Of a DNA stretch of 35,037 bases, positions 4,780 through 26,208 are shown one piece after another. The translations under genes were made by a program, and so were the position numbers. Under the pieces are notes generated by a model, which saw only the letters and a program-made list of their open reading frames with translations, ran no database searches and was not told where the DNA came from. Numbering within the stretch: position 1 is the first letter of the stretch; every line of letters starts with the position of its first letter. The DNA comes from a virus (Duplodnaviria > Heunggongvirae > Uroviricota > Caudoviricetes): IMG/VR virus record IMGVR_UViG_2531839130_000012. One strand, 5' to 3'.

Positions 4780-7190
4780 GTCATGCCGATATGAACAACT
4801 GCTGCGGCTTTAACGAGGCTGCCGCAGCATTCTCATGGAACAGCCCGAAAAAGGCCATTAACCCTTATCTGGACCCGGCGGAAGTTGCGCCGGTTTCTAC
4901 GCTTTCAAACCTGATCACTCTGTACGCTGCCGATAACGAGCAGGAACAGTTGCGCCGCGAGGCACTGAGTGATCAGGTCTGGGAGCGTTATTTCTTTAAT
5001 GAATCACGTGATCCTGTCCAGCGCGAAATGGAGCAGGATAAGCTCATTAGCCGGGCAAAGCTGGCGCATGAGCAGCAGCGTTTTAATTCAGACATGGTCA
5101 TTCTGGCGGACGTCAACGCCCAGCCTTCCCATATCAGCAAGCCGCTGATGCAACGTATTGAATACTTCAGCAGCCTGGGCAGGCCAAAGGCTTATTCCCG
5201 CTATTTACGTGAGACGATTAAGCCATGTCTGGAACGACTGGAGCATGTACGCGACAGTCAGCTATCTGCATCTTTTCGCTTTATGGCAAGCCATGAAGGG
5301 CTGGACGGCCTGCTGATCCTGCCTGAAATGAGTCAGGATCAGGTGAAACGCCTGTCCACCCTAGTAGCTGCGCATATGAGTATGTGCCTTGATGCAGCTT
5401 GTGGTGATTTGTATGCCACCGATGACGTTAAGCCAGAAGAAATCCGCAAGACATGGGAAAAGGTGGCAGCGGAAACCCTGCGTCTGGATGTCATCCCACC
5501 TGCGTTTGAGCAACTCCGTCGGAAAAGAAACCGCCGTAAACCCGTGCCCTATGAACTCATTCCGGGTTCGCTGGCGCGTATGTTGTGCGCCGACTGGTGG
5601 TATCGGAAATTATGGAAGATGCGTTGCGAATGGCGGGAAGAGCAGTTGCGCGCTGTTTGCCTGGTCAGCAAAAAAGCATCTCCTTATGTCAGCTATGAAG
5701 CCGTGATGCATAAACGTGAGCAGCGCCGTAAGTCGCTGGAGTTTTTCCGTTCTCATGAACTGGTGAACGAAGACGGCGACACGCTGGACATGGAGGATGT
5801 GGTAAACGCCAGCAGCAGCAACCCTGCGCATCGCCGCAATGAGATGATGGCCTGTGTTAAAGGTCTGGAGCTTATCGCGGAAATGCGCGGTGACTGCGCC
5901 GTTTTCTACACTATCACCTGTCCGTCGCGTTTCCATTCCACGCTAAATAACGGCAGACCAAACCCGACCTGGACAAACGCGACGGTAAGACAAAGCAGCG
6001 ATTATCTGGTCGGCATGTTTGCTGCATTTCGTAAGGCGATGCACAAAGCCGGGTTGCGCTGGTATGGCGTGCGGGTGGCTGAGCCGCATCATGATGGCAC
6101 AGTTCACTGGCACCTGTTGTGTTTCATGCGCAAAAAAGACCGCCGTGCCATCACTGCATTACTGCGTAAGTTTGCCATCCGTGAAGACCGCGAGGAGCTG
6201 GGCAATAACACTGGGCCGCGCTTTAAGTCTGAGTTGATTAACCCGCGCAAAGGAACGCCGACAAGCTATATCGCGAAATATATCAGTAAGAACATTGACG
6301 GTCGTGGTCTGGCTGGCGAGATCAGCAAGGAAACGGGTAAATCTCTGCGTGATAACGCTGAATACGTGAATGCCTGGGCGTCTCTGCATCGTGTTCAGCA
6401 ATTCCGCTTCTTTGGTATTCCGGGGCGTCAGGCTTACCGTGAACTTCGCTTGCTGGCTGGTCAGGCGGCAAGGCAACAGGGTGACAAAAAAGCAGGTGCG
6501 CCGGTACTGGATAACCCGCGTCTTGATGCCATTCTGGCTGCTGCTGATGCTGGTTGTTTTGCCACCTACATCATGAAGCAGGGCGGCGTACTGGTTCCCC
6601 GTAAATATCACCTCATCAGAACCGCTTATGAAATCAACGAAGAGCCGACCGCCTATGGCGATCACGGCATTCGTATTTATGGCATCTGGTCACCCATTGC
6701 AGAGGGCAAGATCTGCACTCATGCAGTGAAGTGGAAAATGGTTCGTAAAGCCGTTGACGTTCAGGAGGCGGCAGCCGACCAGGGCGCTTGCGCCCCTTGG
6801 ACTCGTGGCAATAACTGTCCCCTTGCTGAAAATTTGAACCAACAGGAGAAAGATAAATCAGCTGATGGGGACCCCAGAACGGACATTACCCGCATGGATG
6901 ACAAGGTGTTGCACGATTACCTGCACAGTATGAACAAAAAGGAGCGCCGGGAACTGGCTGCAAGGTTACGCCTGGTGAAACCGAAATGGCGTAGAGACTA
7001 CAAACAGCGAATTACAGACCATCAACGACAGCAGCTCGTCTATGAACTGAAGTCCAGAGGATTTGATGGCAGCGAGAAAGAGGTCGATTTACTCCTTCGC
7101 GGCGGCAGTATTCCGTCAGGAGCAGGCCTGCGTATCTTCTATCGGAACCAGCGTTTGCAGGAAGATGATAAGTGGCGGAACCTGTATTAA
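4776..7190 (+). CDS. A: Replication initiation endonuclease A (rolling-circle initiator, P2 gpA family)
   Basis: 804 aa; HUH-like VHWHLL motif and paired-tyrosine [10 protein letters not shown] motif; position after the early operon. Confidence 0.9.
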
Positions 7191-7259
7191 TTACGCTGGT
7201 TAACAATTCGTGCTCTTAATAATACCAGGCATATCAGGCTGATAAGCGTAAAAAAACGT

Positions 7260-7302
7260 TTTACATCAGTAAGATTATTATATACTGTAAACATAAACAG
7301 TG
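7260..7302 (+). promoter_or_regulatory. SOS promoter: -35 TTTACA (7260-7265), -10 TATACT (7281-7286), overlapping LexA box TACTGTAAACATAAACAGTG (7283-7302)
   Basis: CTGT-N8-ACAG core with 16/20 match to the LexA consensus TACTGTATATATATACAGTA, placed over the -10/+1 region about 45 nt upstream of the next ATG. Confidence 0.6.
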
Positions 7303-7343
7303 GTTATACATACAGTATTGCGTGTGGTGTCATAGGAGGAAAG

Positions 7344-7532
7344 ATGCAGGACTATTTTTTGGAGTCTTTGAAGCTCCAGCGCATTGATTTTTTTCTTAAG
7401 CTTGTAGCGGCTAGTGAGTGTAGTGATGAAGAGAAGGGGCTGGCTCTGCAGTGGGTTTCTGAATTGACTGATGAACTCATGGCAAAAATCAGAAGCCACG
7501 AATACAACCGCTCAATGGATGTCATCAACTGA
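7344..7532 (+). CDS. Small SOS-regulated protein (62 aa), possible Tum-like antirepressor N-terminal module
   Basis: Strong TAGGAGGA Shine-Dalgarno before ATG 7344; first ORF after the LexA box; same position as the 186 tum operon. Confidence 0.45.
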   Translation: MQDYFLESLKLQRIDFFLKLVAASECSDEEKGLALQWVSELTDELMAKIRSHEYNRSMDVIN

Positions 7533-7542
7533 GGTGACTTTT

Positions 7543-7776
7543 ATGCGCATTGAAATAATGATCGATAAAGAGCAGAAGATTAGCCAGTCTACCCTGGACG
7601 CCCTTGAATCCGAGCTTTACCGCAATCTGCGCCCCCTGTATCCCAAAACGGTAATCCGTATCCGTAAAGGTAGCTCTAACGGTGTGGAACTGACCGGACT
7701 GCAACTGGACGAAGAAAGAAAACAAGTGATGAAAATTATGCAGAAGGTGTGGGAAGACGACAGCTGGCTGCATTGA
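7543..7776 (+). CDS. DinI-family protein
   Basis: MRIEIMIDK...LDALESELYRNL...YP...KQVMKIMQKVWEDDSW aligns along its length with E. coli DinI (MRIEV..., ...WESADDW); GAGG Shine-Dalgarno before ATG 7543. Confidence 0.75.
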   Translation: MRIEIMIDKEQKISQSTLDALESELYRNLRPLYPKTVIRIRKGSSNGVELTGLQLDEERKQVMKIMQKVWEDDSWLH

Positions 7777-7830
7777 TTTTGTCAATAGACGCTTGTTTTT
7801 ACTAATCAAAAAGGGTTACATATGAGTGAG

Positions 7831-7863
7831 AGGCGATGTCAATCAGATATCGCCTTGTTTTTT
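7831..7863 (+). terminator. Rho-independent terminator-like hairpin (AGGCGAT / ATCGCCT) followed by TTGTTTTTT
   Basis: Read directly from the sequence downstream of the DinI-like gene. Confidence 0.45.
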
Positions 7864-7889
7864 GTCAAGAAAAGAATAATAGGCTAAAA

Positions 7890-8567
7890 ATGAAAATTAA
7901 TAACGTAGCGTTACCAATATCTCTGGCTGTAATCCTAACTGGTTGCGTGCCACATGCTTCTAACCGAAATATCACTGCTATTGAAGTGGTGAAGCCTGCT
8001 ATTGGGCAAAGTGCTACCGCCTACATGGGCGATCCCATTATCACATCTGCTACTGGATTTAAAACGGACGTACTAGAACTTGGTGCGGCTAATGGTGCAT
8101 TGTCTTCTATCGCTGCTGGTACATATTGCAGTGAGGGGAATGGAATTTACCGCAATTATCATAACCCTCAAGCTGTTGCGTTAAAAAATCTCTATGGGCA
8201 AATCGGTAACTATGTTGATTATGTTAGTTACGATGCTGCAAAAAATGAGATATCACCGCCAAATGGTACTTCTTATACTGCATCAGAAATTTCTATCAAA
8301 CGTGTTCCTGATGGGCTGTGTCGAGTTAGTAACTCATTGGTTAAGACTATCGAATACAATGGAAATGCAGGCGGTGTAATGAAGTTCACCTATCGTGAAT
8401 TTGCAAACGATATGGCTCGTGCAGCATTTACAACAGATTTTTCTGTAGATTCTAAGGGAAGTGACGTTATCGCTTACAAAGGTGCCAAGTTCAAAGTGAA
8501 CAAGGCTGATAACTCGTCTATTTCTTATACAATTATTTCTGGCTTTGACAAGACTGTCACGTTCTAG
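7890..8567 (+). CDS. Lipoprotein of unknown function (lipobox LTGC), cargo gene
   Basis: MKINNVALPISLAVILTGC signal with lipobox Cys; AT-rich; sits between the SOS operon and the cos-like site. Confidence 0.6.
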   Translation: MKINNVALPISLAVILTGCVPHASNRNITAIEVVKPAIGQSATAYMGDPIITSATGFKTDVLELGAANGALSSIAAGTYCSEGNGIYRNYHNPQAVALKNLYGQIGNYVDYVSYDAAKNEISPPNGTSYTASEISIKRVPDGLCRVSNSLVKTIEYNGNAGGVMKFTYREFANDMARAAFTTDFSVDSKGSDVIAYKGAKFKVNKADNSSISYTIISGFDKTVTF

Positions 8568-8671
8568 GTTTCACGCTTGCTGAGTATGTTACGATTTTGC
8601 ACATTCTGCATAAACGCGCATGTCTATGCTGCATGAGATCGCATGATCGTTTGAGGATCTTTTGTGTTAAG

Positions 8672-8698
8672 GCCCGCCAGTTCTGGCGGGCTTTTGCG
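8672..8698 (+). terminator. Rho-independent terminator (GCCCGCCAG ttc TGGCGGGC then TTTTG)
   Basis: Perfect GC-rich stem plus T-run downstream of the lipoprotein gene. Confidence 0.6.
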
Positions 8699-8740
8699 TA
8701 GATCATGCAGGTGCATGAAAACCACTACATAAAGCGGGCA

Positions 8741-8759
8741 GGCGTGGCGGGGATACGAG
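8741..8759. other. Candidate cos (cohesive-end) site, GGCGTGGCGGGGA...
   Basis: 13/13 identity to the start of the 19-nt P2/186 cohesive-end sequence as I recall it (GGCG[A/T]GGCGGGGAAAGCA...); location between gene A and the portal gene matches P2/186. Confidence 0.4.
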
Positions 8760-8840
8760 CGCGCGGATGAGTAATCTATACCATCATCTTGATAAAAGTA
8801 TTAAAAATGGTAAATTTAGCAAGCTACATATTAAAGGAAA

Positions 8841-10238
8841 ATGAAGATGTATGAAGTAATTGATATATCAGCGCAGGAAATTAAGGCGTTGTTAAACACT
8901 ACTGAAGATCATTTCAATGATTTTAAAAGTAAGCAAATAGCGCCTAATAAATTACAAGAAACTTTTGTAGCATTTGCAAATGCTGATGGCGGTAATATTT
9001 ATATTGGCATAGAGGATGCAGCTTCGGGGAGAGAGCGTATATCTGGTTTCAATGAGCCAGAGGAAGCGAATGCTATTATTTCGACCTTATTGGAAAATAC
9101 TAATCCAGCTGTTGAGAATGTTGAGGTGGAATATTTAAGAACACCTTCCAATGGATTGATTTTACATGTGGATATACCAAAAAGCCCCAAAGTTCATTAC
9201 ACGGCCTCTGGCGATTGCTTTATAAGAGCTAACGCGCAAAAATTAAAAATAAAAGGTGAGCGAATTACTCAGCTTTCCTATTCTAAAGGCGCAGAACCTT
9301 ATGAAAAAAAAGCAGTGGATATAGTTGAAGTAGAAGATATTCTTGAAAGTGAATATTATTCTGATTATTTACGTAGAATAGGAACGACTCAGTCACCGAG
9401 AGTTTTTTTAAAAAAACAACGACTGTTAACTAAGAAAGATGGTGAATTTGTCCCGAATGTAGGCTGTGTTTTACTATTTGATGAAGAGCCTCAAGGATGT
9501 TTAGATACTCGATGTGCTGTAAAAGTATATCGGCTTAGAACAACTGAAGCAGAGTACAAACGTGAACAATTACAGGAAGATCCTGTAACGATTGAGGGGC
9601 CACTTGAAGTGGTTATTTTAAATACAATAGCAAAAGTAAAAGAATATGTTGATGGAGCATCATTCAAAGACGGCGAAAATCTAGTAAAACTTAGCTATCC
9701 TGCAGAAGCATTGAAGGAAATATTAGTTAATGCTGTTATTCATAGAGATTACAGCCAAAAGGATGATGTGCACGTAAAAGTTTATGACAACCGGATTGAA
9801 GTTCAAAGTCCAGGCAGATTGCCTGGATACATGACTATTAATAATTTATATGAAGAGCGGTTTTCTCGTAATCCAAATTTAGTGCGTTTGTTGCATAAAC
9901 TTCCCAATCCAGTGAACCATGATATTGGTGAGGGGCTTGATACTGCAAAAAATGAATTGCGTAAGGCCGGGTTGGTAGCCCCGGTATTTGAAGAAAGGGG
10001 CAATAATTTTGTTGTAATAGTTAAGCATCAAACAATAGCCTCAATTGAGGATGTGATTATTAATTATTTTAAAGAAAATCCAACGGGACAGCTCACAAAT
10101 AAGTTGGTTAGACAATTAAGTGGCGAAGATGACCTTCAAAAGGTTAAAAAGGCATTGCAAAAGTTAAGGGAGGAGGGCGTAATAAAACCATTAGATCCTA
10201 ACGCGAATCCTTTCAAATTTAAATATATTAAAGCTTAA
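8841..10238 (+). CDS. Schlafen-like/AlbA_2 DNA-binding domain + HATPase_c_4-like domain + C-terminal winged-helix protein (465 aa); candidate defence/cargo gene
   Basis: N-terminal FNDFKSK...VAFANADGGNIYIGIED (AlbA_2/Schlafen signature); central EALKEILVNAVIHRDYS...VKVYDNRIEVQSPGRLP (HATPase_c_4 signature); C-terminal LTNKLVRQLSGEDDLQKVKKALQKLREEGVI (wHTH-like); strongly AT-rich; flanked by terminators; the start may be ATG 8847 rather than 8841. Confidence 0.7.
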   Translation: MKMYEVIDISAQEIKALLNTTEDHFNDFKSKQIAPNKLQETFVAFANADGGNIYIGIEDAASGRERISGFNEPEEANAIISTLLENTNPAVENVEVEYLRTPSNGLILHVDIPKSPKVHYTASGDCFIRANAQKLKIKGERITQLSYSKGAEPYEKKAVDIVEVEDILESEYYSDYLRRIGTTQSPRVFLKKQRLLTKKDGEFVPNVGCVLLFDEEPQGCLDTRCAVKVYRLRTTEAEYKREQLQEDPVTIEGPLEVVILNTIAKVKEYVDGASFKDGENLVKLSYPAEALKEILVNAVIHRDYSQKDDVHVKVYDNRIEVQSPGRLPGYMTINNLYEERFSRNPNLVRLLHKLPNPVNHDIGEGLDTAKNELRKAGLVAPVFEERGNNFVVIVKHQTIASIEDVIINYFKENPTGQLTNKLVRQLSGEDDLQKVKKALQKLREEGVIKPLDPNANPFKFKYIKA

Positions 10239-10244
10239 GTTAAA

Positions 10245-10269
10245 GGTGGAGGTTGTCTCCACCTTTTTT
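10245..10269. terminator. Bidirectional rho-independent terminator (GGTGGAG gttgt CTCCACC, A-run before, T-run after)
   Basis: Between the convergent 465-aa gene and the portal gene. Confidence 0.55.
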
Positions 10270-10289
10270 CATAGGTAATGATTTTTAAA

Positions 10290-11318
10290 TTATAGTTTAT
10301 AGTGTTCGAAAGTTATTGCTTCTTCATTGATCCAATAGTTGAGATCTTGTAACTTCTTCTGAAGTGGCATCAGTTCATTCCGAACAAATACCCGGCTGGC
10401 CTTCTCCACATCCCCAAACCCTCCAACATTATTAGGCATAATCCCCATCATTTGCGGCGGCACGCGGTGCGCAGCCATCATGTCGTCGCGGCTGACATTT
10501 TTGATATTCAGAAATTCATCCTTCGCCGCGACTTCTGATAACGGGATGATTTGAAGCCCGTCCTTTTTGCCGTTAGGCGAGTACATAAACAGATTGCGGA
10601 AGTTGCCTGGACCTTTGGCGCTTTTCATTGCGTTGCGGAGGTTGTTCACATCCTCCTGGTTCTGCGCGGCATCGGTCATGTACATGATGAAGCCTGCATG
10701 GCTGCCGTTGATGTAATACTTACGGCGGAACAGCGTGGCGGACTCGTTGAGCAGGGCTGACGGAATGGCAGAAAGATAGCCGGGCAGGCCGTAGATCTCC
10801 TGGTTAATGTCCGGTTCCATCAGATGAAAAATGCTGCCTTTCGTGAACTGATACGGCTGGGTTGTCATACCGTATTGCACAAACCAGTAGGTATCCAGGT
10901 CTAACCCGCGTCGGGTGTATTTTGCCAGAGCAGGCTCAAGGGCGATAACTTCACCGAAGCGGTTCGTGCGTTTCTCCAGGTAGGCGTTACCAAATACCAG
11001 ATAGTCCTGCACAAAACGTGAAAAAGCCTGCTGGCTGAGCAGCGGATGGGGGATGTAGGTACTGGTCAGAATGTTGCATTTCACCGCAATTGGTGAACTG
11101 TGATGCACGGCGGCGCGGAAGGTGCGTGCCAGTCCGTCAAAGCTTACTGGCGGCTCATACCAGCGATCTGTCTGTACGCATTCCACATAGTCCAGTAGTT
11201 CGCGGCGGTCCAGAACAGGAACGGGATCACCGAAGCTGAATGCTTCGGCTGTAGTTTGACTTTTATGCTGGATCTGGTTCGTCGACGCAGCGCGGTTCTT
11301 CTTACTCTTTCCCATCAA
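10290..11318 (-). CDS. Q: Portal protein (P2 gpQ family)
   Basis: 342 aa; first late gene next to the cos region, co-oriented with and overlapping the terminase ATPase gene, as in the P2 PQ operon. Confidence 0.9.
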   Translation of the reverse strand: MMGKSKKNRAASTNQIQHKSQTTAEAFSFGDPVPVLDRRELLDYVECVQTDRWYEPPVSFDGLARTFRAAVHHSSPIAVKCNILTSTYIPHPLLSQQAFSRFVQDYLVFGNAYLEKRTNRFGEVIALEPALAKYTRRGLDLDTYWFVQYGMTTQPYQFTKGSIFHLMEPDINQEIYGLPGYLSAIPSALLNESATLFRRKYYINGSHAGFIMYMTDAAQNQEDVNNLRNAMKSAKGPGNFRNLFMYSPNGKKDGLQIIPLSEVAAKDEFLNIKNVSRDDMMAAHRVPPQMMGIMPNNVGGFGDVEKASRVFVRNELMPLQKKLQDLNYWINEEAITFEHYKL

Positions 11319-19099: not shown

Positions 19100-19678
19100 A
19101 TGAACGCACAATTAACCGAAATCATGCGCCTTATCACCAACCTGATCCGCACAGGGGTAGTCACCGAAGTGGACAGGGAAAACTGGCTTTGCCGGGTGAA
19201 AACGGGCGAGCTTGAAACCAACTGGATCAGCTGGCTGACGCTGCGTGCCGGGAATGCCCGTACATGGTGGCGACCATCGGAAGGTGAGCAGGTGGTGCTG
19301 CTGAGTCTGGGCGGCAATCTGGAAACCGCCTTTGCGCTGCCCGCTGTCTATTCGAATCAGTTCGCACCACCGTCGACGTCGGCGGACGCCTGCGTGACAG
19401 AACATCCTGACGGTGGCTGGTTTGAATACGAACCCGCCACCGGGCGCTGGTATGTCAGGGGCATCAAATCAATGGTCATTGAGGCTGCTGACAACATCAC
19501 CATGAAAACCAGTGAGTTTGTACTGGAGGCTGACCGCACGCGCATTAACAGCGAAGTGGTGATCAATGGTGGCGTTACCCAGGGCGGCGGAGCGATGAGT
19601 TCTAACGGGATCGTGGTTGATGCGCATCAGCATACTGGCGTCCTGAAAGGCGGCGATACAACCGGAGGCCCGGTATGA
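19100..19678 (+). CDS. V: Baseplate spike/assembly protein V
   Basis: Synteny and size. Confidence 0.8.
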   Translation: MNAQLTEIMRLITNLIRTGVVTEVDRENWLCRVKTGELETNWISWLTLRAGNARTWWRPSEGEQVVLLSLGGNLETAFALPAVYSNQFAPPSTSADACVTEHPDGGWFEYEPATGRWYVRGIKSMVIEAADNITMKTSEFVLEADRTRINSEVVINGGVTQGGGAMSSNGIVVDAHQHTGVLKGGDTTGGPV

Positions 19679-20034
19679 CGCTTTATAGCGGGATGAACAA
19701 TACCAGCGGCACAGTCATTACTGATATTGATCATCTGCGCCAGTCGGTGCGGGACATTCTGCTGACACCGCAGGGTAGCCGTATTGCCCGCCGGGAATAT
19801 GGTTCCCTGCTGTCGGCACTGATAGATCAGCCACAAAATCCGGCATTACGCCTGCAGGTCATGTCGGCAGTGTATGTGGCGCTGAGTCGCTGGGAGCCAC
19901 GGTTGACGCTGGATTCCATCACCATCAACAGCAATTTTGACGGTTCAATGGTGGTGGAGCTGACCGGGCGGCGGAATAACGGTGTGCCTGTGTCCCTTTC
20001 CGTATCAACAGGAGCAGAGAATGGCAGTGATTGA
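19675..20034 (+). CDS. W: Baseplate wedge protein W (gp25-like)
   Basis: Synteny V-W-J-I. Confidence 0.8.
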   Translation: MTLYSGMNNTSGTVITDIDHLRQSVRDILLTPQGSRIARREYGSLLSALIDQPQNPALRLQVMSAVYVALSRWEPRLTLDSITINSNFDGSMVVELTGRRNNGVPVSLSVSTGAENGSD

Positions 20035-20929
20035 CCTTTCGCAGTTGCCTGCACCGCAGATTGTGGATGTGCCGGACTTTGAGACGCTGCTTGCCGAACG
20101 CAAGGCAGAATTTGTGGCGCTTCATCCGAAAGATGAGCAGGAAGCAGTGATCCGCACGCTGGAACTGGAATCTGAACCCGCCACTAAATTGTTGCAGGAG
20201 AACGCTTACCGTGAGTTGCTTCTGCGCCAGCGCATTAACGAAGCCGCGCAGGCGGTGATGGTGGCTTACGCGATGGGCGGCGATCTTGACCAGCTCGCTG
20301 CCAACTACAACGTGACACGCCTGACGGTGACGCCTGCTGATAATGATGCTGTGCCGCCCGTTGCAGCTGTGATGGAAAGCGATGAAGCGTTGCGCCTGCG
20401 TGTGCCTGCAGCCTTTGAAGGGCTTTCTGTTGCGGGGCCAACTGCAGCTTATGAATTTCATGCCCGAAGCGCCGACGGTCGGGTGGCGGATGCCAGTGCA
20501 ACCAGCCCGGCACCTGCAGAGGTGGTGCTGACTGTCCTTAGCCGCGAAGGCGATGGAACTGCAGAAAAAGACCTGCTGGACGTGGTGGAAAAAGCTCTGA
20601 ACAGTGAGAACGTCCGCCCGGTGGCTGACCGTCTTACGGTTCGCAGCGCAGAAATCATCCCGTATCGCGTGGAAGCCACCATTTTTCTCTATCCGGGACC
20701 GGAAGCAGAGCCGGTAATGGCAGCGGCAAAAGCCAGTCTGCAGAAGTACATTGCCAGCCAGACGAGGCTTGGTCGGGATATTCGCCGTAGCGCCATCTTT
20801 GCTGCTCTGCATGTTGAGGGTGTTCAACGTGTGGAACTGGCTTCTCCGCTGGCGGATGTGGTCCTGAACAAAACACAGGCGGCATCATGTACGCAGTGGA
20901 GCGTAACCAACGGAGGAACGGATGAATAG
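20021..20929 (+). CDS. J: Baseplate protein J
   Basis: AGGAG Shine-Dalgarno before ATG 20021 (MAVIDLSQLP); synteny. Confidence 0.85.
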   Translation: MAVIDLSQLPAPQIVDVPDFETLLAERKAEFVALHPKDEQEAVIRTLELESEPATKLLQENAYRELLLRQRINEAAQAVMVAYAMGGDLDQLAANYNVTRLTVTPADNDAVPPVAAVMESDEALRLRVPAAFEGLSVAGPTAAYEFHARSADGRVADASATSPAPAEVVLTVLSREGDGTAEKDLLDVVEKALNSENVRPVADRLTVRSAEIIPYRVEATIFLYPGPEAEPVMAAAKASLQKYIASQTRLGRDIRRSAIFAALHVEGVQRVELASPLADVVLNKTQAASCTQWSVTNGGTDE

Positions 20930-21527
20930 TCTGCTGCCACCGGGTTCAACTTCACTGGAGCGCCGACTGGCGCAAACCTGTAGCGGGATTTCTAATTTGC
21001 AGGTGCCGCTGCGTGACTTGTGGAATCCGGCTACCTGTCCGGTCAGCTTCCTGCCTTATCTCGCCTGGGCGTTCTCTGTGGATCGCTGGGACGAGGGCTG
21101 GACAGAAAGCGTCAAACGCCAGGTAGTGAAGGATGCTTTTTATATTCATCAGCATAAAGGAACTACCAGTGCCGTGCGGCGGGTGGTGGAACCGTTCGGA
21201 TTCCTGATCCGCATTATTGAGTGGTGGCAGACCGGAGAAACACCGGGCACGTTTCGCCTGGATATCGGCGTGCAGGACCAGGGCATCACTGAAGATACCT
21301 ATCTGGAACTTGAGCGGCTGATAAGCGATGCCAAACCATGTAGCCGTCACATGATCGGCATGTCCATCAATCTGCAGACCAGCGGTCCGCATTGGGTGGG
21401 GGCCGCCAGCTATCTTGGCGAAGAAATCACGATCTATCCGTATATCAACGAAACAATTATTTCTGGCGGCACCGCGCATGAAGGCGGGGCGGTCCATGTT
21501 ATTGACACAATGAGAGTGAATCCATGA
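20922..21527 (+). CDS. I: Baseplate/tail protein I
   Basis: Synteny. Confidence 0.8.
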   Translation: MNSLLPPGSTSLERRLAQTCSGISNLQVPLRDLWNPATCPVSFLPYLAWAFSVDRWDEGWTESVKRQVVKDAFYIHQHKGTTSAVRRVVEPFGFLIRIIEWWQTGETPGTFRLDIGVQDQGITEDTYLELERLISDAKPCSRHMIGMSINLQTSGPHWVGAASYLGEEITIYPYINETIISGGTAHEGGAVHVIDTMRVNP

Positions 21528-22603
21528 GCACAAAATTTTATACCCTGCTGACGGATATTGGCGCGGCGAAACTTGCCAGCGCCGCCGCGCTCGGTGTGCC
21601 GCTAAAAATTACCCATATGGCGGTCGGCGATGGCGGCGGAGTATTACCGACGCCGGACGCAAAGCAGACGGCACTGGTAAATGAGAAACGCCGGGCTGCG
21701 TTGAATATGCTTTATATCGACCCGCAGAACAGTAGCCAGATTATTGCTGAACAGGTGATCCCTGAAAACGAGGGCGGTTGGTGGATACGTGAAGTGGGCC
21801 TGTTTGATGAGTCCGGGGCATTGATTGCCGTGGGAAACTGCCCGGAAAGCTATAAGCCGCAACTGGCTGAAGGCAGCGGGCGTACCCAGACCGTGCGCAT
21901 GGTGCTGATTACCAGCAGCACGGACAATATCACCCTGAAAATCGACCCTGCCGTAGTGCTGGCAACCCGCAAGTATGTGGATGATAAGGTACTGGAGCTG
22001 AAGGTGTACGTGGATGATCAGATGGCAAAACATCTTGCAGCACCGGACCCGCATTCACAGTATGCACCCAAAGAAAGTCCTACGTTTACCGGGACACCCA
22101 AAGCGCCAACGCCAGCGGCGGGGAATAACACCACGCAGGTTGCGACCACCGCGTTTGTTCAGGCGGCACTGACGGCTCTTATTAATGGTGCGCCAGCCAC
22201 GCTGGACACGCTGAAAGAAATTGCCGCAGCCATAAACAATGACCCGAAATTCAGTACCACCATTAACAATGCGCTGGCACTGAAAGCGCCGCTGTCGAGT
22301 CCGGCACTCACCGGAACGCCAACAGCACCTACTGCGGCACAGTCGGTCAACAATACACAGATTGCCACCACGGCATTTGTGAAATCGGCGATTGCGGCAA
22401 TGGTGGGTTCTGCACCTGCGGCACTGGATACACTGAACGAACTGGCGGCGGCACTGGGGAATGATCCGAACTTTGCCACGACAATGCTTAATGCGCTGTC
22501 AGGTAAACAACCGCTGGACAATACGCTTACCAATTTGAGTGGAAAGGATGTAGCTGGTCTTCTCACATACCTTGGTTTGGGAGAAGCCAGATATGTCATT
22601 TAG
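21524..22603 (+). CDS. H: Tail fibre protein H, constant N-terminal part, terminating at an in-frame TAG 5 codons inside the invertible segment
   Basis: Two tandem ~60-aa tail-fibre repeats (NTTQVATTAFVQAAL... and NNTQIATTAFVKSAI...); the crossover site lies in its 3' end; TAG at 22601-22603. Confidence 0.8.
   Translation: MSTKFYTLLTDIGAAKLASAAALGVPLKITHMAVGDGGGVLPTPDAKQTALVNEKRRAALNMLYIDPQNSSQIIAEQVIPENEGGWWIREVGLFDESGALIAVGNCPESYKPQLAEGSGRTQTVRMVLITSSTDNITLKIDPAVVLATRKYVDDKVLELKVYVDDQMAKHLAAPDPHSQYAPKESPTFTGTPKAPTPAAGNNTTQVATTAFVQAALTALINGAPATLDTLKEIAAAINNDPKFSTTINNALALKAPLSSPALTGTPTAPTAAQSVNNTQIATTAFVKSAIAAMVGSAPAALDTLNELAAALGNDPNFATTMLNALSGKQPLDNTLTNLSGKDVAGLLTYLGLGEARYVI
22560..22585. 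other. hix/gix-like 26-bp crossover site, left: TTCTCACATACC-TT-GGTTTGGGAGAA
   Basis: 12-2-12 architecture with ACC-core-GGT like hix/gix; its inner half site is the exact reverse complement of the inner half site of the right site. Confidence 0.6.
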
Positions 22604-22915
22604 CGAGGAGCTAATGCCAATGGTGCATGGGTACGCTGGTCAGATGGTGCAATAGAAGTATTTGGAACCGGTGGATCTAATGATAATGGACTGGCTAAAG
22701 TCGTTTACCCAATTGCACTGCCTAAACTTTCACGTTTTATCAGTATCGCAGAAAGAATAAGAACGGATTACGAGAGCACACCTAATAATGTTCACGTTTC
22801 AATGATCGTGGATGATCAGGTAACAAATACCGGCTTTTATGCCCGCTGCCAGATGTACGACGGCAGACCATCATCAAATGCTTTTTCATGGAGGGTTTAT
22901 TGTGCGCCTGTTTAA
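22604..22915 (+). pseudogene. Tail-fibre C-terminal tip domain remnant, in frame with H but separated from it by the TAG codon
   Basis: Translation RGANANGAWVRWSDGAIEVFGTGG...NVHVSMIVDDQVTNTGFYARCQMYDGRP has the pattern of a phage tail-fibre C-terminal domain; no start codon of its own. Confidence 0.4.
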
Positions 22916-23099
22916 TCCAGTTACTTTGACTGAAGTAATCCCCGGTCTTCATGACGTGACCGGGGCTATTGAATTACCGGAGGACAACTGGTTTTTTACT
23001 ATGACAGAAATTCCTCAGGGCATGGAGCTAACAATTAATGAGAAAGGCGAACCAATACTGATTGAGGTTAATCAGTCTCAGGGAATACAGGCCAAATAA
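22902..23099 (+). pseudogene. Truncated gpG-like tail-fibre assembly chaperone (66 aa, N-terminal part only)
   Basis: GGAGGG Shine-Dalgarno and GTG start overlapping the fibre-tip stop; ...PEDNWFFTMTEIPQGMELTINEKGEPILIEV resembles the N-terminal region of P2 gpG (...[28 protein letters not shown]...); ends where the convergent chaperone gene ends. Confidence 0.4.
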
Positions 23100-23673
23100 T
23101 ATCAGGCGCGGTGCTGGTATCTATTGCCGTCACCGCGTCAATGTAATCCAGCACAGCGTTAAGGCGGGTTGTTTCTGCCTGCGTCAGTTTACGTCCGGCC
23201 TGCAATTTCAGCTGAATCAGACTGATGGAAGCCATAGCAGCATCAATCAGAGACTGGCGCTGTACTTCTGCTGCATCTACTGCGGCGCTATGCTGTGCCT
23301 CGGTATCTGTTACCCATTTCTCACCATCCCATTTATCGTATGGCGTTAATGGGGCAAAAGTGGTCGTATTTTCAGGGTAATCCCCCGGCACAGTAATTTC
23401 TTTTGATTCCCCCGTTTCGATGCCATAGACAATTTCACCGCGATGGTCTGGCACATATTCCCATGAGTTAAAATCTGCAGAACGGCAGATTGCATAACCA
23501 GCCTTATGTGTGCCGGGCGCATCGGTACAGGAATTGGCAGGAATACCCACCCCCACAGGCAGATACTCAAGCGATGAGGATATGTATTCGCGGGTGTCGC
23601 CCCGGTAGTTGTACACAGTGATTTCTCCTGCCACGGTGGCAATAAACGCACTGTTTAATTTTGCTTTCGCCAT
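23068..23673 (-). CDS. Tail-fibre assembly chaperone (Tfa family) of the alternative cassette
   Basis: 201 aa ending ...DYIDAVTAIDTSTAPDIIWPVFPETD (conserved Tfa C-terminal motif); start codon overlaps the stop of the upstream fibre cassette. Confidence 0.75.
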   Translation of the reverse strand: MAKAKLNSAFIATVAGEITVYNYRGDTREYISSSLEYLPVGVGIPANSCTDAPGTHKAGYAICRSADFNSWEYVPDHRGEIVYGIETGESKEITVPGDYPENTTTFAPLTPYDKWDGEKWVTDTEAQHSAAVDAAEVQRQSLIDAAMASISLIQLKLQAGRKLTQAETTRLNAVLDYIDAVTAIDTSTAPDIIWPVFPETD

Positions 23674-24257
23674 TATGCAGCCCTCACGATGTAGTTAAAT
23701 GCAATGTTGCGCGGACGGGTTTCAGATGCGTACACGGACGGATGAGTAACACCGTCTGAGGTCGATGCCCTGTAAGTCCTGAATGGTGGTAATCCGGGCG
23801 CTATTTCGTTGTTATTACCTGTTGGTGAAAGGTCCTTGCGATAAAGGATTACCTTGTCTGCCCTACTGGTTGCGTCCCATGATGTTCCTGACGACGATGG
23901 ACTCAGGACCGCACTGGGTATTTCTGGTTCATCGTTGAAAACCGTATAGATATCGCTTTCCATCTGGTATGACGGATTACCCACTCCGGTTGGCAGAGCG
24001 TGCGCATGGTCCTGGAAAGCAAAACTCTGACAACTGAGAAGTATGCGCCCCCCATCAATCCCTCGCCCGCCATCCCAGCCACGAATAAACTCACCACGTA
24101 AATCTGGCAATTTATTTGTCGGGTAAGCCTTTGCCAGTTCCGGGTATTCTTCAGCAGAAAAAGCCGCACCATTGCATTTCAGCCAGCCTGTTGGCGGAGT
24201 GGCTGAAGGCCACGGAACAGGGACACCAACAGGTAATGCAGAGCCTTCTCCCAAACC
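23673..24257 (-). CDS. Alternative tail-fibre C-terminal cassette with tail-collar domain (promoterless; would fuse to H after inversion)
   Basis: Reads GLGEGSALPVGVPVPWPSATPPTGWLKCNGAAFSAEEYPELAKAY...LPDLRGEFIRGWD (tail-collar-like) starting at the right crossover site; shares the GLGE junction codons with H. Confidence 0.7.
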   Translation of the reverse strand, partial: GLGEGSALPVGVPVPWPSATPPTGWLKCNGAAFSAEEYPELAKAYPTNKLPDLRGEFIRGWDGGRGIDGGRILLSCQSFAFQDHAHALPTGVGNPSYQMESDIYTVFNDEPEIPSAVLSPSSSGTSWDATSRADKVILYRKDLSPTGNNNEIAPGLPPFRTYRASTSDGVTHPSVYASETRPRNIAFNYIVRAA

Positions 24258-24271
24258 AACGTTTATGAAAA
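24246..24271. other. hix/gix-like 26-bp crossover site, right: TTCTCCCAAACC-AA-CGTTTATGAAAA
   Basis: Inverted relative to the left site; core AA versus TT. Confidence 0.6.
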
Positions 24272-24326
24272 TGCAGAGATAATGGTTAACTGGCATCATC
24301 CCCGGTTTTTATTCAGGGGGATGCTC

Positions 24327-24893
24327 ATGCTTATTGGCTATGTACGCGTGTCAACAAATGACCAGAACACCGATTTGCAACGTAATGCACTGAACTGCGC
24401 GGGATGTGAGCGAATTTTTGAGGATAAAATCAGTGGCACTAAGTCCGACAGACCAGGGTTGAAAAAACTGCTCAGGACACTATCGGCAGGAGACACGCTG
24501 GTTGTCTGGAAGCTGGACAGGTTGGGGCGCAGTATGCGGCATCTTGTTACGCTGATAGAAGAGTTGCGTCAGCAAGGCGTGAATTTCCGAAGCCTGACTG
24601 ACAGTATTGATACCAGCACCCCAATGGGCCGTTTCTTTTTTCATGTCATGGGTGCCCTGGCTGAAATGGAACGCGAACTGATAGTTGAACGTACCAGGGC
24701 AGGGCTGGCTGCAGCTCGTGCCAAAGGCAGAGTAGGTGGACGCCGTCCTAAGTTGACCACCGAACAGTGGGCACAGATTGGGCGTTTACTCGAGGCCGGA
24801 GAATCAAGACAGCGTATTGCACTGATTTTTGATGTGGGTGTTTCCACAATTTATAGAAAATTTCCGGCAAATAAGAGCAATGAATCCCCCTGA
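24327..24893 (+). CDS. Serine DNA invertase, Gin/Pin/Cin/Hin family
   Basis: MLIGYVRVSTNDQNTDLQRNAL...LVVWKLDRLGRSM...FRSLTDSIDTS...MGRFFFHVMGALAEMERELI closely resembles Mu Gin; C-terminal HTH. Confidence 0.85.
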   Translation: MLIGYVRVSTNDQNTDLQRNALNCAGCERIFEDKISGTKSDRPGLKKLLRTLSAGDTLVVWKLDRLGRSMRHLVTLIEELRQQGVNFRSLTDSIDTSTPMGRFFFHVMGALAEMERELIVERTRAGLAAARAKGRVGGRRPKLTTEQWAQIGRLLEAGESRQRIALIFDVGVSTIYRKFPANKSNESP

Positions 24894-24941
24894 ATCAGCA
24901 TTATTTTGATTATCCCTGCAAGTAGACAAATACCGTCATTT

Positions 24942-24959
24942 TGTGTGAATAACGGTACA
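24942..24959. promoter_or_regulatory. Ogr/B-type late-promoter dyad TGT-N12-ACA upstream of the sheath gene
   Basis: TGTgtgaataacggtACA about 85 nt before the FI start. Confidence 0.5.
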
Positions 24960-25035
24960 ACTGCGCTTAGCTGTTTGTCAGGCACAATCACTTCAACATA
25001 GGGCGAAGCCTAATCCAATCAGGAGGTTCGCCACT

Positions 25036-26208
25036 ATGGCTCAGGATTACCACCACGGGGTGCGCGTTGTTGAAGTCAACGAAGGCACCCGATCCATTAC
25101 CACGGTGAGCACCGCCATCGTGGGCATGGTCTGCACGGGCGATGATGCCGATGCAAAAATGTTTCCTCTTAACAAACCTGTTCTGATCACTGATGTGCTG
25201 ACTGCCAGCGGTAAAGCGGGTGAGTCCGGCACGCTGGCCCGTTCGCTGGATGCCATCGCTGACCAGGCAAAACCCGTGACCGTTGTTGTGCGTGTGCCGC
25301 AGGGTGAAACGGAAGAAGAAACCACGACCAATATCATCGGCGCAGTGACTGCTGAAGGTAAAAAAACAGGCATGAAAGCTCTGTTATCTGCCCAGTCACA
25401 GCTCGGCGTTAAACCGCGCATTCTTGGCGTGCCAGGCCACGATAACAAAGCCGTTGCGACTGAATTGCTGAGCGTGGCGCAAAGCCTGCGTGGGTTTGCT
25501 TACCTGTCAGCGTATGGCTGCAAGACAGTGCAGGAGGCGATCACTTACCGTGAAAACTTTAGCCAGCGCGAAGGGATGCTGATCTGGCCTGACTTTACTG
25601 GCTGGGACACGGTGCTGAACGCCGAAGCAATGGCATATGCCACCGCCCGTGCGCTTGGTCTGCGCGCCAAAATTGATGAGCAGACTGGGTGGCACAAAAG
25701 CCTGTCCAACGTGGGCGTGAACGGTGTCACCGGAATTTCTGCTGATGTGTTCTGGGATCTGCAGGACCCGGCAACAGATGCGGGACTGCTGAACCAGAAC
25801 GACGTCACCACGCTTGTGCGCAAGGACGGTTTCCGCTTCTGGGGTTCCCGCTGTCTGAGTGATGACCCGCTCTTTGCCTTCGAAAACTACACCCGCACAG
25901 CGCAGGTACTGATGGACACAATGGCAGAAGCGCACATGTGGGCGGTGGACAAACCGCTGAACCCGTCGCTGGCGCGCGACATTATCGAAGGTATCCGCGC
26001 CAAAATGCGCAGCCTGGTCAGTCAGGGCTATCTCATTGGTGGTGATTGCTGGCTGGATGAGTCGGTGAACGATAAAGACACGCTGAAAGCCGGAAAACTC
26101 ACCATCGACTATGACTACACGCCAGTGCCGCCACTTGAAAAACTGATGCTGCGCCAGCGCATCACCGATCAGTACCTGGTGAATTTCGCCAGCCAGGTCA
26201 GCGCGTAA
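25036..26208 (+). CDS. FI: Contractile tail sheath protein FI
   Basis: 390 aa; AGGAGG Shine-Dalgarno; synteny FI-FII-E-T. Confidence 0.9.

What the first reader, a model, noticed from the sequence alone, without database searches (positions are those of the whole stretch)
22574..23099. In the current orientation the tail-fibre cassette looks decayed: in-frame amber codon in H and a truncated assembly chaperone
Seen in sequence: H reads ...LTYLGLGEARYVI and hits TAG at 22601-22603, five codons after the crossover core; the same frame then continues without a start codon through a recognisable fibre-tip domain to 22915. The overlapping chaperone gene (GTG 22902) is only 66 aa and stops where the convergent chaperone gene ends, whereas gpG-like chaperones are about 175 aa. 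By contrast the opposite-strand cassette encodes a complete tail-collar C-terminus plus a 201-aa Tfa. Inference: this orientation is a nonfunctional or host-range-off state created by deletion and nonsense mutation, so infectivity of released particles would depend on inversion; alternatively the short tip is a genuine minimal receptor-binding domain and the TAG is a lesion in this isolate.
Basis: partly seen in the sequence, partly recalled or inferred. Interest (0 to 1): 0.65.

Follow-up and report, generated by a model that had tools for sequence, protein, structure and literature searches.

The report
Amber-hit arm of switchable tail fibre
One of the two interchangeable tips of this prophage's tail fibre is knocked out by a single C-to-T nonsense mutation found only in one clonal lineage, while the "truncated chaperone" next to it is a widely conserved miniature version of a fibre-assembly protein, so the cassette is ordinary apart from that one lesion.

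Summary
The sequence observation is correct. H stops at TAG 22601-22603, the same frame runs on to TAA 22913-22915, and a 65-aa ORF (GTG 22902 to 23099) overlaps the convergent 201-aa Tfa gene by 32 nt.

The TAG is a real single C-to-T change from CAG (Gln360). Near-identical prophages such as NCTC9064 have CAG and an intact 463-aa H. None of 112 complete E. coli genomes with this segment carries TAG. TAG appears only in one clone (window, L004-L006), and H is the only interrupted gene in the prophage.

The short tip and the 65-aa ORF are not deletion debris of this isolate.
- In 55 viral contigs the ORF is 58-69 aa (one copy frameshifted), in almost all of them directly after the ~105-aa tip.
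- Both genes are under purifying selection (dN/dS about 0.15) and co-vary (r = 0.76).
- In several P2-like modules without any invertase they are the only fibre cassette.

The small protein is homologous to the N-terminal, fibre-binding domain of full-length Tfa chaperones and lacks their conserved C-terminal domain.

Verdict: this is a standard Pin/Gin-type host-range switch with one arm amber-inactivated in one lineage, plus an undescribed "mini-Tfa".

The parts
21524..22603 (+). Tail-fibre gene H as it reads in this orientation. It gives 359 aa and ends at the amber codon. Residues 1 to about 350 are the constant part (Phage_tail_fib N-terminal domain plus shaft).
   Evidence: PF12571, E 4e-65 on the intact NCTC9064 homologue; 99.8% identical to the 463-aa H of NCTC9064, with one in-frame stop.
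22560..22585 (.). Left 26-bp hix/gix-like recombination site, TTCTCACATACC|TT|GGTTTGGGAGAA. The central dinucleotide is at 22572-22573, inside H codon 350.
   Evidence: The core is identical to the e14 P-segment repeat TTGGTTTGGGAGAAGG reported in PMC12529663. The half-site layout follows my own knowledge of hixL.
22601..22603 (+). Amber codon TAG, which is CAG (Gln360) in relatives. It is a single C-to-T transition at 22601.
   Evidence: alignment with NCTC9064 and O111 15A. (0 of 112 complete genomes carry TAG). (Q, S or N at this residue in every other locus whose tip ORF reaches this residue). (TAG also in L004-L006, same clone).
22574..22915 (+). Variable tip A, the roughly 113 codons after the crossover. 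It is a short gp53/R-pyocin-like receptor-binding domain, cut off from H here by the amber codon.
   Evidence: Gp53-like_C, E 0.002, below Pfam's cut-off. (15 of 21 family members match at E<=0.01, best 8.8e-7). (weak profile hits to R1/R2 pyocin fibre structures). (dN/dS 0.16).
22902..23099 (+). Mini-Tfa, a 65-aa protein homologous to the N-terminal fibre-binding domain of Tfa chaperones but lacking the conserved C-terminal domain. It overlaps the tip's stop by 14 nt and has its own GGAGGG ribosome-binding site.
   Evidence: the family is 57-69 aa. (hhalign 98.9% against the 131-aa Caudo_TAP protein P0182). (phage JK004 gene_1). (P0182 C-terminus matches Mu U, 5yvq_B). (dN/dS 0.15). (co-variation with the tip, r=0.76).
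23068..23673 (-). Full-length 201-aa tail-fibre assembly protein of the alternative cassette (Tfa-B).
   Evidence: Caudo_TAP, E 2.2e-30. (phrog_105). (99.5% identical to NCTC9064, no stop).
23673..24259 (-). Variable tip B with a tail-collar domain. It is promoterless here and fuses to the constant part of H after inversion.
   Evidence: Collar, E 1.8e-15. (in MB06173 the inverted state gives a 544-aa H). (99.0% identical, no stop).
24246..24271 (.). Right 26-bp recombination site, TTCTCCCAAACC|AA|CGTTTATGAAAA, inverted relative to the left site.
24327..24893 (+). Serine DNA invertase of 188 aa, Pin/Gin/Cin/Hin type.
   Evidence: Resolvase E 3.3e-53, HTH_7 E 1.3e-15. (100% identical to the NCTC9064 invertase).

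Best explanation
The region is the left half of a two-state, Pin/Gin-type invertible host-range segment (about 1.69 kb, 22572/3 to 24258/9) in an otherwise intact P2/186-like prophage.

Inversion by the adjacent serine invertase joins the constant part of tail-fibre protein H (residues 1 to about 350) to one of two C-terminal cassettes:
- Cassette A: a short (about 113-aa) lectin-like gp53/R-pyocin-type tip plus a 65-aa 'mini-Tfa'.
- Cassette B: a tail-collar tip plus a 201-aa Tfa.

Cassette A in its short form is the normal, selected state of a widespread module. The mini-Tfa is the fibre-binding N-terminal domain of a Tfa chaperone that has dispensed with the conserved C-terminal oligomerisation domain. 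I infer that it binds or caps the small tip during or after trimer formation.

What is abnormal here is one base. CAG(Gln360) has become TAG, ten codons into the variable part, and this has been fixed in one clonal prophage lineage. I infer the following consequences. In the present orientation H terminates at 359 aa without any tip. Fibres fold from their C-terminal end, so such cells should release fibre-less or non-adsorbing particles. Only cells that have flipped to cassette B, or hosts with a Gln-inserting amber suppressor, would yield infectious phage. The lineage has therefore lost one of its two host ranges.
For: Shown by tool results:
- One-base difference from CAG in prophages that are 99.8% and 92% identical over the 2.1-kb invertible-segment query, both of which have a 463-aa H.
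- The TAG version of a 60-nt probe matches no complete E. coli genome exactly. The CAG version matches 112 genomes, and every listed genome scores one mismatch better with CAG.
- TAG is present in three other assemblies that are 99.99-100% identical to the window, so it is inherited and not an error.
- All 40-odd other prophage genes are full length; H is the only one with a stop. There are no tRNA genes in the window.
- Both orientations of the same prophage occur among genomes (L001 versus L002; strains 61 versus 64). Logan unitigs break exactly k-1 bases after the last flank-specific base, which indicates mixed orientation in the reads.
- The short cassette is conserved. All 55 IMG/VR loci have a 58-69-aa ORF (one copy frameshifted), and in nearly all loci where the upstream sequence is present and readable it lies 14 nt into the end of a ~105-aa tip. 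Many are fused in frame to H of 387-474 aa.
- Five P2-like modules have I-H(short tip)-mini-Tfa-sheath with no invertase and no second cassette.
- dN/dS is 0.15 for the mini-Tfa (codons 13-54) and 0.16 for the tip.
- Tip and mini-Tfa identities co-vary (r=0.76), whereas tip and shaft do not (r=0.12).
- Homology of the mini-Tfa to the first ~59 residues of bona fide Caudo_TAP proteins is supported by hhalign at 98.9% (E 1.9e-17) and by phage JK004 gene_1. The remainder of those proteins matches the C-terminal domain of Mu Tfa, 5yvq_B.

From the literature: Tfa proteins have a variable N-terminal fibre-binding domain and a conserved C-terminal trimerisation domain (PMC9608196, citing North et al. 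2019).
Against: - No experiment bears on the function of the short tip or the mini-Tfa. All evidence is comparative.
- Nearly all carriers are prophages. Among deposited phage records only S164 (partial genome) and, distantly, Cronobacter phage JK004 carry a homologue of the small ORF.
- Loss of the domain thought to drive fibre oligomerisation is hard to reconcile with a classical chaperone role.
- The loci were retrieved with a pattern that fixes the first 12 residues, so degraded copies are under-sampled. Lesions do occur elsewhere: a frameshift in L022, an IS3 insertion in E. coli W, and a 1.46-kb deletion in L005.
- Assignment of the tip to the gp53-like fold rests on sub-threshold Pfam and PDB sequence matches for the window's own copy.
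- No usable structural model was obtained.
Confidence: 0.85

Rival explanations
1. Cassette A is a decayed, host-range-off arm created by both a deletion and a nonsense mutation. On this view the deletion shortened the tip and cut the chaperone to 65 aa, and the small ORF is a non-functional remnant.
For: - The small ORF covers only the first ~66 positions of phrog_5400 (145 positions).
- It covers only the N-terminal ~59 residues of 128-131-aa Tfa proteins.
- Its variable C-terminal tail runs antisense into the end of the convergent Tfa gene, as a deletion junction would.
- Other lesions of this cassette exist in other lineages.
Against: - The same length and architecture are kept in 55 viral contigs and in clusters down to 43% identity.
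- dN/dS is 0.15, equal to that of the tip.
- The ORF has a strong ribosome-binding site.
- The short form ends a few residues after the conserved GEPxL motif even where no convergent gene exists.
- It is the sole cassette in invertase-less P2-like modules.
- Any deletion was therefore ancient and the product has been maintained; it is not decay in this isolate.
Confidence: 0.08
2. The TAG is a sequencing or assembly artefact and H is intact in the real genome.
For: It is a single-base difference from very close relatives.
Against: The same T is found in three further assemblies from different projects (an ENA metagenome assembly, GCA_019585435.1 and GCA_958337735.1). All are 99.99-100% identical to the window over 5-9 kb. 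NCBI protein records of the 359-aa product also exist.
Confidence: 0.02
3. The amber codon is read through, by a host suppressor tRNA such as a supE-type glnV allele or by context-dependent leakiness. Enough full-length H would then be made and the arm would still work.
For: CAG to TAG is exactly the change that a Gln-inserting amber suppressor would correct to wild type. The base after the stop is C, which to my knowledge is a comparatively weak termination context.
Against: There is no tRNA gene in the window. Amber suppressors are rare in natural E. coli (my own knowledge). The allele is confined to one clone, and one member of that clone has gone on to delete most of both cassettes. That pattern fits relaxed selection rather than a maintained recoding site.
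Confidence: 0.04
4. The truncated arm has been kept because it benefits the host. It might act as a domesticated switch that limits production of infectious phage, or that expresses fibre fragments which block other phages, as reported for the e14 P segment.
For: An invertible segment with the same crossover sequence in cryptic prophage e14 yields a chimeric fibre protein that blocks T2 adsorption (PMC12529663).
Against: The amber removes the receptor-binding part rather than creating a new fusion. The allele is in a single clone with no sign of spread. No lysogenic promoter signal above chance was found in the region.
Confidence: 0.02

Closest known systems
Din-family invertible host-range segments: Mu G/Gin, P1 C/Cin, e14 P/Pin, and P2-like prophage switches in E. 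coli (Goldberg et al. 2014, PMC4272514)
   Same: - A serine invertase lies next to the segment.
- Two inverted 26-bp hix-like sites are present, one inside the fibre gene, so that inversion swaps the fibre C-terminus together with its downstream helper gene.
- The crossover core is identical to that of e14.
- Both orientations are seen in nature.
   Different: One arm carries a very short tip with a 65-aa helper instead of a full Tfa. In this lineage that arm is inactivated by an amber codon.
Phage P2 H/G and Mu S/U fibre-chaperone pairs; TfaMu (PDB 5YVQ; North et al. 2019, as summarised in PMC9608196)
   Same: The helper gene lies immediately after, and overlaps, the fibre gene. The mini-Tfa is homologous to the N-terminal fibre-binding module of Caudo_TAP proteins.
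   Different: It lacks the conserved C-terminal helical domain that defines the family and is proposed to drive trimerisation. It does not reach any Pfam Caudo_TAP score.
Long-form homologues: Cronobacter phage JK004 gene_2/gene_1, and the metagenomic two-cassette segment L070 (P0182)
   Same: A short gp53-like tip is followed directly by a helper whose first ~56-59 residues are homologous to the window's ORF. In L070 it converges on a second Tfa and tip, as in the window.
   Different: There the helper is 128-131 aa with a complete Caudo_TAP C-terminal domain. The tips are only distantly related to the window's tip.
AP22 gp53 C-terminal domain (Pfam PF21882) and the R-type pyocin fibre foot domain (PDB 6CT8, 6CL6, 6CXB; PMC6363177)
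   Same: A small C-terminal receptor-binding domain sits on a P2-like contractile-tail fibre. There are weak sequence matches for the window's tip and clearer ones for family members.
   Different: The window's own tip is below Pfam's gathering score (19.1 versus 24.9 bits). The fold was not confirmed by a model.
P2 H amber mutants (classical conditional-lethal tail-fibre mutants; my own knowledge)
   Same: A nonsense codon in H is expected to give fibre-less, non-infectious particles in suppressor-free hosts.
   Different: Here the amber lies in the invertible part, so it is conditional on segment orientation as well as on suppression.

Membership tests
Din-type (Gin/Cin/Pin/Hin) invertible tail-fibre switch | An adjacent small serine recombinase with an N-terminal resolvase catalytic domain and a C-terminal HTH | tested here: met
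   Resolvase E 3.3e-53 and HTH_7 E 1.3e-15 in the 188-aa protein at 24327-24893.
Din-type (Gin/Cin/Pin/Hin) invertible tail-fibre switch | Two inverted 26-bp recombination sites with a matching central dinucleotide | tested here: met
   sites at 22560-22585 and 24246-24271, with centres TT and AA. They share a 15-nt perfect core and there is no third site. The core equals the e14 repeat quoted in PMC12529663.
Din-type (Gin/Cin/Pin/Hin) invertible tail-fibre switch | One site lies inside the fibre gene, so that alternative C-termini and their helper genes are expressed | tested here: met
   H is 463 aa with tip A (NCTC9064) and 544 aa with tip B (MB06173).
Din-type (Gin/Cin/Pin/Hin) invertible tail-fibre switch | The segment is actually found in both orientations | tested here: met
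   the same prophage occurs in both orientations across genomes; unitig breaks are consistent with mixed reads. This was not shown for the amber clone itself; all four of its assemblies are in the present orientation.
Din-type (Gin/Cin/Pin/Hin) invertible tail-fibre switch | A Fis-dependent recombinational enhancer | not tested
   I did not look for one.
Caudo_TAP tail-fibre assembly proteins (Pfam PF02413), for the 65-aa ORF | Match to the family profile at Pfam's gathering score | tested here: not met
   no Caudo_TAP hit even at E<=1; no NCBIfam hit.
Caudo_TAP tail-fibre assembly proteins (Pfam PF02413), for the 65-aa ORF | A conserved C-terminal helical domain (...W..Y..L..VD....P.WP..P) | tested here: not met
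   the family ends 2-15 residues after the N-domain; the corresponding part of the long-form P0182 matches Mu U residues 118-175.
Caudo_TAP tail-fibre assembly proteins (Pfam PF02413), for the 65-aa ORF | An N-terminal fibre-specific domain homologous to that of a recognised Tfa | tested here: met
   hhalign 98.9%, E 1.9e-17, over 58 columns against P0182 (Caudo_TAP 73 bits). JK004 gene_1.
Caudo_TAP tail-fibre assembly proteins (Pfam PF02413), for the 65-aa ORF | The gene lies immediately downstream of its fibre tip and travels with it | tested here: met
   a 14-nt overlap in almost all loci; tip and small-ORF identities correlate at r=0.76.
Caudo_TAP tail-fibre assembly proteins (Pfam PF02413), for the 65-aa ORF | Required for, or bound to, correctly folded fibre | not testable with these tools
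   This needs co-expression or pull-down, virion proteomics or genetics.
Gp53-like_C receptor-binding domain (Pfam PF21882), for tip A | Match to the family profile at Pfam's gathering score | tested here: inconclusive
   19.1 bits against a cut-off of 24.9 (E 0.002); 15 of 21 relatives match at E<=0.01, best 8.8e-7; profile hits to R-pyocin fibres at E 0.02-0.14.
P2-type tail fibre H | An N-terminal tail-collar fibre domain, with the gene placed after baseplate genes J and I | tested here: met
   PF12571 E 4e-65; gene order V-W-J-I-H.

The most novel reading that the evidence does not exclude
The 57-69-aa 'mini-Tfa' may be a functional, self-sufficient partner of a short lectin-like fibre tip. 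That would mean the conserved C-terminal domain of Tfa chaperones, currently regarded as the part that drives fibre trimerisation, is dispensable for a whole class of P2-like fibres. The N-domain alone might act as a tip cap or co-receptor-binding subunit that stays on the virion, as TfaMu does.
Probability: 0.5. Interest if true: 0.45.

Novelty: new variant of a known kind. Interest (0 to 1): 0.3.

Why it matters
For this genome the result is mainly a correction. The cassette is not a wreck. It is a standard invertible host-range switch in which one base change has silenced one of two host ranges in one clonal lineage.

The wider point is the small gene. A very common, unannotated 60-aa protein (PHROG 'unknown function', NCBI 'hypothetical protein') turns out to be the fibre-binding half of a tail-fibre assembly protein, kept without the half thought to do the assembling. 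If it is functional, it gives a minimal tip-plus-helper module of about 170 aa in total. Such a module could be useful for retargeting P2-like phages and tailocins, and it offers a natural test of the current two-domain model of Tfa action.

It also warns annotators that short ORFs after fibre genes should not be dismissed as truncations.

Tried and rejected
- **Structure prediction with family alignments (A2, A3).** The single-sequence model of the 65-aa protein was unusable (pLDDT 50.8), so no fold search was run and no structural claim is made.
- **Profile search of the representative library with A2.** The single-sequence search was used instead.
- **The search for related loci in genome contigs.** It was blocked because the query equals database proteins. 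It was replaced by a degenerate DNA pattern scan of viral contigs.
- **Hits of the 65-aa ORF to giant Mollicutes-type repeat proteins (Spiralin/DUF285).** I judged these to be repeat-summed chance matches and did not pursue them.
- **PDB sequence searches.** Those with the mini-Tfa profile and with the tip gave nothing significant.
- **Promoter and terminator scan of 21400-25100.** It found no more sites than shuffled sequence.
- **Third recombination site (shufflon-like arrangement).** None was found.
- **Suppressor tRNA in the window.** None was found.
- **Count of '359-aa H' contigs as a measure of the amber allele.** I rejected it. Five of the eight loci shown are CAG contigs that merely end at the equivalent of 22601.
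- **Literature searches for a described N-domain-only Tfa.** They found none.
Full report
**Setting.** The window holds a P2/186-like prophage: integrase at 1-1110, late genes, and ogr near 32 kb, followed by host flank. The tail module runs V-W-J-I-H (19100-22603). After it come a segment bounded by inverted repeats, a serine invertase (24327-24893), sheath FI, tube FII, E/E' and the tape measure.

The repeats (22560-22586 and 24245-24271) contain a perfect 15-nt TTGGTTTGGGAGAAG. This is the same core as the e14 P-segment repeat quoted in PMC12529663. They can be written as 26-bp hix-like sites with central TT/AA at 22572-3 and 24258-9 (layout from my own knowledge of hixL). There is no third site, so this is a simple two-state switch of about 1.69 kb.

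**Checking the observation.**
- H reads ...LTYLGLGEARYVI and stops at TAG 22601-22603, which is codon 360.
- The frame continues as RGANANGAWVRWSDG... to TAA 22913-22915.
- A 65-aa ORF (not 66) starts at GTG 22902, six bases after GGAGGG, and ends at 23099. It overlaps by 32 nt the end of a convergent 201-aa Caudo_TAP gene.
- The minus-strand cassette has a Collar-domain tip and is intact.

**The amber codon is a real, lineage-specific point mutation.** The prophage of E. coli NCTC9064 is 99.8% identical across the segment and has CAG where the window has TAG. H there is an uninterrupted 463 aa. A more distant relative (O111 strain 15A, 92% identical) is the same.

I compared two 60-nt probes against the complete E. 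coli genomes.
- The TAG probe matches 48 genomes, none exactly.
- The CAG probe matches 112 genomes, 30 of them exactly.
- Each listed genome scores exactly one mismatch better with CAG.

No complete genome therefore carries T at this site. In the viral-contig relatives whose tip ORF reaches this position, the residue is always Q, S or N.

The T is not an error. It recurs in an ENA metagenome assembly (L004), in GCA_019585435.1 (L005) and in GCA_958337735.1 (L006). All three are 99.99-100% identical to the window over 5-9 kb.

One caution applies to the counts. The database figure of contigs encoding 'the 359-aa H' is inflated. Five Logan contigs (of the eight loci shown) carry the CAG allele and simply end at the base equivalent to 22601. 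That is 30 nt after the last flank-specific base, as expected for k=31 unitigs from cultures with both orientations.

H is the only gene in the prophage with an in-frame stop when compared gene by gene with the NCTC9064 annotation. The window has no tRNA gene.

**The short tip and the 65-aa gene are the normal state of a widespread module.**
- The 65-aa protein sequence encoded here is recorded on at least 997 contigs. Homologues from Enterobacter, Salmonella, Citrobacter, Hafnia, Xenorhabdus, Erwinia and others are all about 57-73 aa as called.
- An exhaustive phmmer search found stand-alone clusters of 57-65 aa down to 43% identity.
- A degenerate DNA pattern for the first 12 codons retrieved 55 IMG/VR loci. 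Every complete ORF is 58-69 aa, except one frameshifted copy.
- In almost all of them a ~105-aa tip ends 14 nt inside the small ORF.
- In about two dozen the tip is fused in frame to a full H of 387-474 aa.
- Five loci (L015, L020, L042, L047, L050) are P2-like tail modules with no invertase and no second cassette. Their order is I, H with the short tip, the small ORF, then the sheath gene. There the short cassette is the phage's only fibre tip.

Selection and co-variation point the same way.
- Pairwise dN/dS is 0.15 for the small ORF. I used codons 13-54 only, to avoid the ascertained part.
- Pairwise dN/dS is 0.16 for the tip.
- Tip and small-ORF identities co-vary (r=0.76, 406 pairs). Tip and upstream shaft do not (r=0.12, 91 pairs).

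The pair therefore moves and evolves as a unit.

**What the small protein is.** It has no Pfam or NCBIfam family. It matches only positions 1-66 of phrog_5400, which has unknown function. Three longer proteins explain it.
- Cronobacter phage JK004 gene_1 (128 aa) follows a short gp53-like tip and passes Pfam Caudo_TAP at 74 bits. Its first 56 residues align with the window's ORF.
- P0182 (131 aa, Caudo_TAP 73 bits) aligns to the family profile with hhalign probability 98.9% (E 1.9e-17) over its first 59 residues.
- P0182 residues 72-131 match the C-terminal domain of Mu tail-fibre assembly protein U in PDB 5YVQ.

P0182 sits in a classic two-cassette arrangement: tip, Tfa, convergent Tfa, tip.

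According to the literature, Tfa proteins have two domains. A variable N-terminal domain binds the fibre tip, and a conserved C-terminal helical domain mediates trimerisation (PMC9608196, summarising North et al. 2019). The window's ORF is therefore an N-domain-only Tfa, which I call a 'mini-Tfa'.

The loss is ancient and the product has been maintained. The variable C-terminal tails end a few residues after the conserved GEPxL motif whether or not a convergent gene is present. This argues against a recent junction.

**What the tip is.** The window's tip scores 19.1 bits against Pfam Gp53-like_C, below the cut-off of 24.9. Of 21 relatives, 15 match at E<=0.01, the best at 8.8e-7. A family profile gives weak hits to R1/R2 pyocin fibre structures. 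A distant homologue forms the C-terminus of a baseplate-module protein in the lytic Xanthomonas phage DIBBI. I treat 'small lectin-like receptor-binding domain' as likely but not proven.

**Mechanism.**
*Shown:* the architecture of the switch, the intact invertase, the intact cassette B, and the occurrence of both orientations of this prophage type in nature.
*Inferred:*
- In the present orientation the amber ends H at 359 aa, with no tip.
- Fibres nucleate folding at the C-terminal end, and P2 H amber mutants are non-viable without suppression (my own knowledge). Such cells should therefore release non-adsorbing particles.
- Cells that invert the segment make the 544-aa H with tip B and its 201-aa Tfa, and remain infectious.
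- A Gln-inserting suppressor would restore the exact wild-type protein.

The clone has thus lost one of two host ranges. One of its members (L005) has additionally deleted window 22688-24144, which is most of both cassettes. This suggests the prophage is under relaxed selection in that host lineage.

**Comparison and novelty.** The switch is a regular member of the Gin/Cin/Pin/Hin class. The amber is an ordinary pseudogenising SNP. The one feature I could not find described is the mini-Tfa, a conserved Tfa homologue lacking the family-defining C-terminal domain and paired with a very short tip (literature searches). It fails Caudo_TAP membership on two tested features, so I do not file it as a member, only as a homologue of the N-terminal module. 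Whether it chaperones, caps or co-binds is untested.

**Limits.**
- No experiments bear on any of this.
- The locus sample was ascertained by a conserved N-terminal pattern.
- Nearly all carriers are prophages rather than propagated phages.

Overall interest is modest: the finding as posed is largely explained as ordinary, with a small new annotation insight.

Noticed in passing
L005 (GCA_019585435.1, VCYL01000001.1) 5150-5180; equivalent to window 22688-24144: A member of the same amber-carrying clone (100% identical on both sides) lacks 1,457 bp covering most of tip A, the mini-Tfa, Tfa-B and most of tip B. The junction has only 1 nt of overlap, so it is a real deletion rather than an assembly collapse. 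That prophage has no usable fibre tip in either orientation.
   Followed up: partly
L072 (E. coli W, NC_017664.1) 936-2113: An IS3-family element is inserted just after the stop of H and cuts off the first codons of the mini-Tfa gene, which is annotated there as 62 aa (P0056, on 45 contigs). This is an independent lesion of the same cassette in the E. coli W/KO11FL lineage. It also appears in an assembly labelled DH5alpha.
   Followed up: partly
L007-L011 (Logan contigs), ends equivalent to window 22601: Short-read unitigs of CAG-allele prophages stop exactly 30 nt after the last flank-specific base (22571). This yields partial H proteins of 359 residues, identical to the amber-truncated product. 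It is a coincidence that inflates exact-match counts, and it is indirect evidence of mixed segment orientation in those cultures.
   Followed up: yes
window 7836-10238: There is cargo between the DinI-like gene and the portal gene. It consists of a 243-aa protein with no family and a 465-aa protein with Schlafen AlbA_2 and HATPase_c_4 domains, which has weak PADLOC hits to Argonaute-associated models. NCTC9064 has different genes at this spot (an HNH endonuclease and a 427-aa hypothetical protein). This may be a variable anti-phage hotspot.
   Followed up: partly
L069 (NCTC9064) 36239-37305: The integrase of the closest complete relative is annotated as frameshifted, whereas the window's integrase ORF (1-1110, 369 aa) is open. 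The immunity regions also differ: the CI proteins are only about 45-50% identical.
   Followed up: no
L044 (IMGVR_UViG_3300009011_000012, 89-kb contig), locus about 6300-10600: The tip plus mini-Tfa module is one of several alternative tips (several ...GLGEA... starts on both strands) next to a 217-aa invertase. This is a multi-segment, Min/shufflon-like inversion cluster on what looks like a P1-like or plasmid prophage.
   Followed up: no
P0166 (2709 aa) and P0174 (1373 aa): The 65-aa ORF gives summed phmmer hits (5-15 stretches, 26-30% identity) to giant Mollicutes-type repeat proteins with Spiralin/DUF285 domains. This is probably a repeat-amplified chance similarity, but I did not examine it further.
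   Followed up: no
window 23068-23099: In many unrelated loci the mini-Tfa gene and a convergent Tfa gene overlap at their 3' ends by 14-32 nt. The mini-Tfa's variable tail is then encoded antisense to the conserved ...WP..P end of the other chaperone. In other loci there is a gap or no convergent gene at all.
   Followed up: partly
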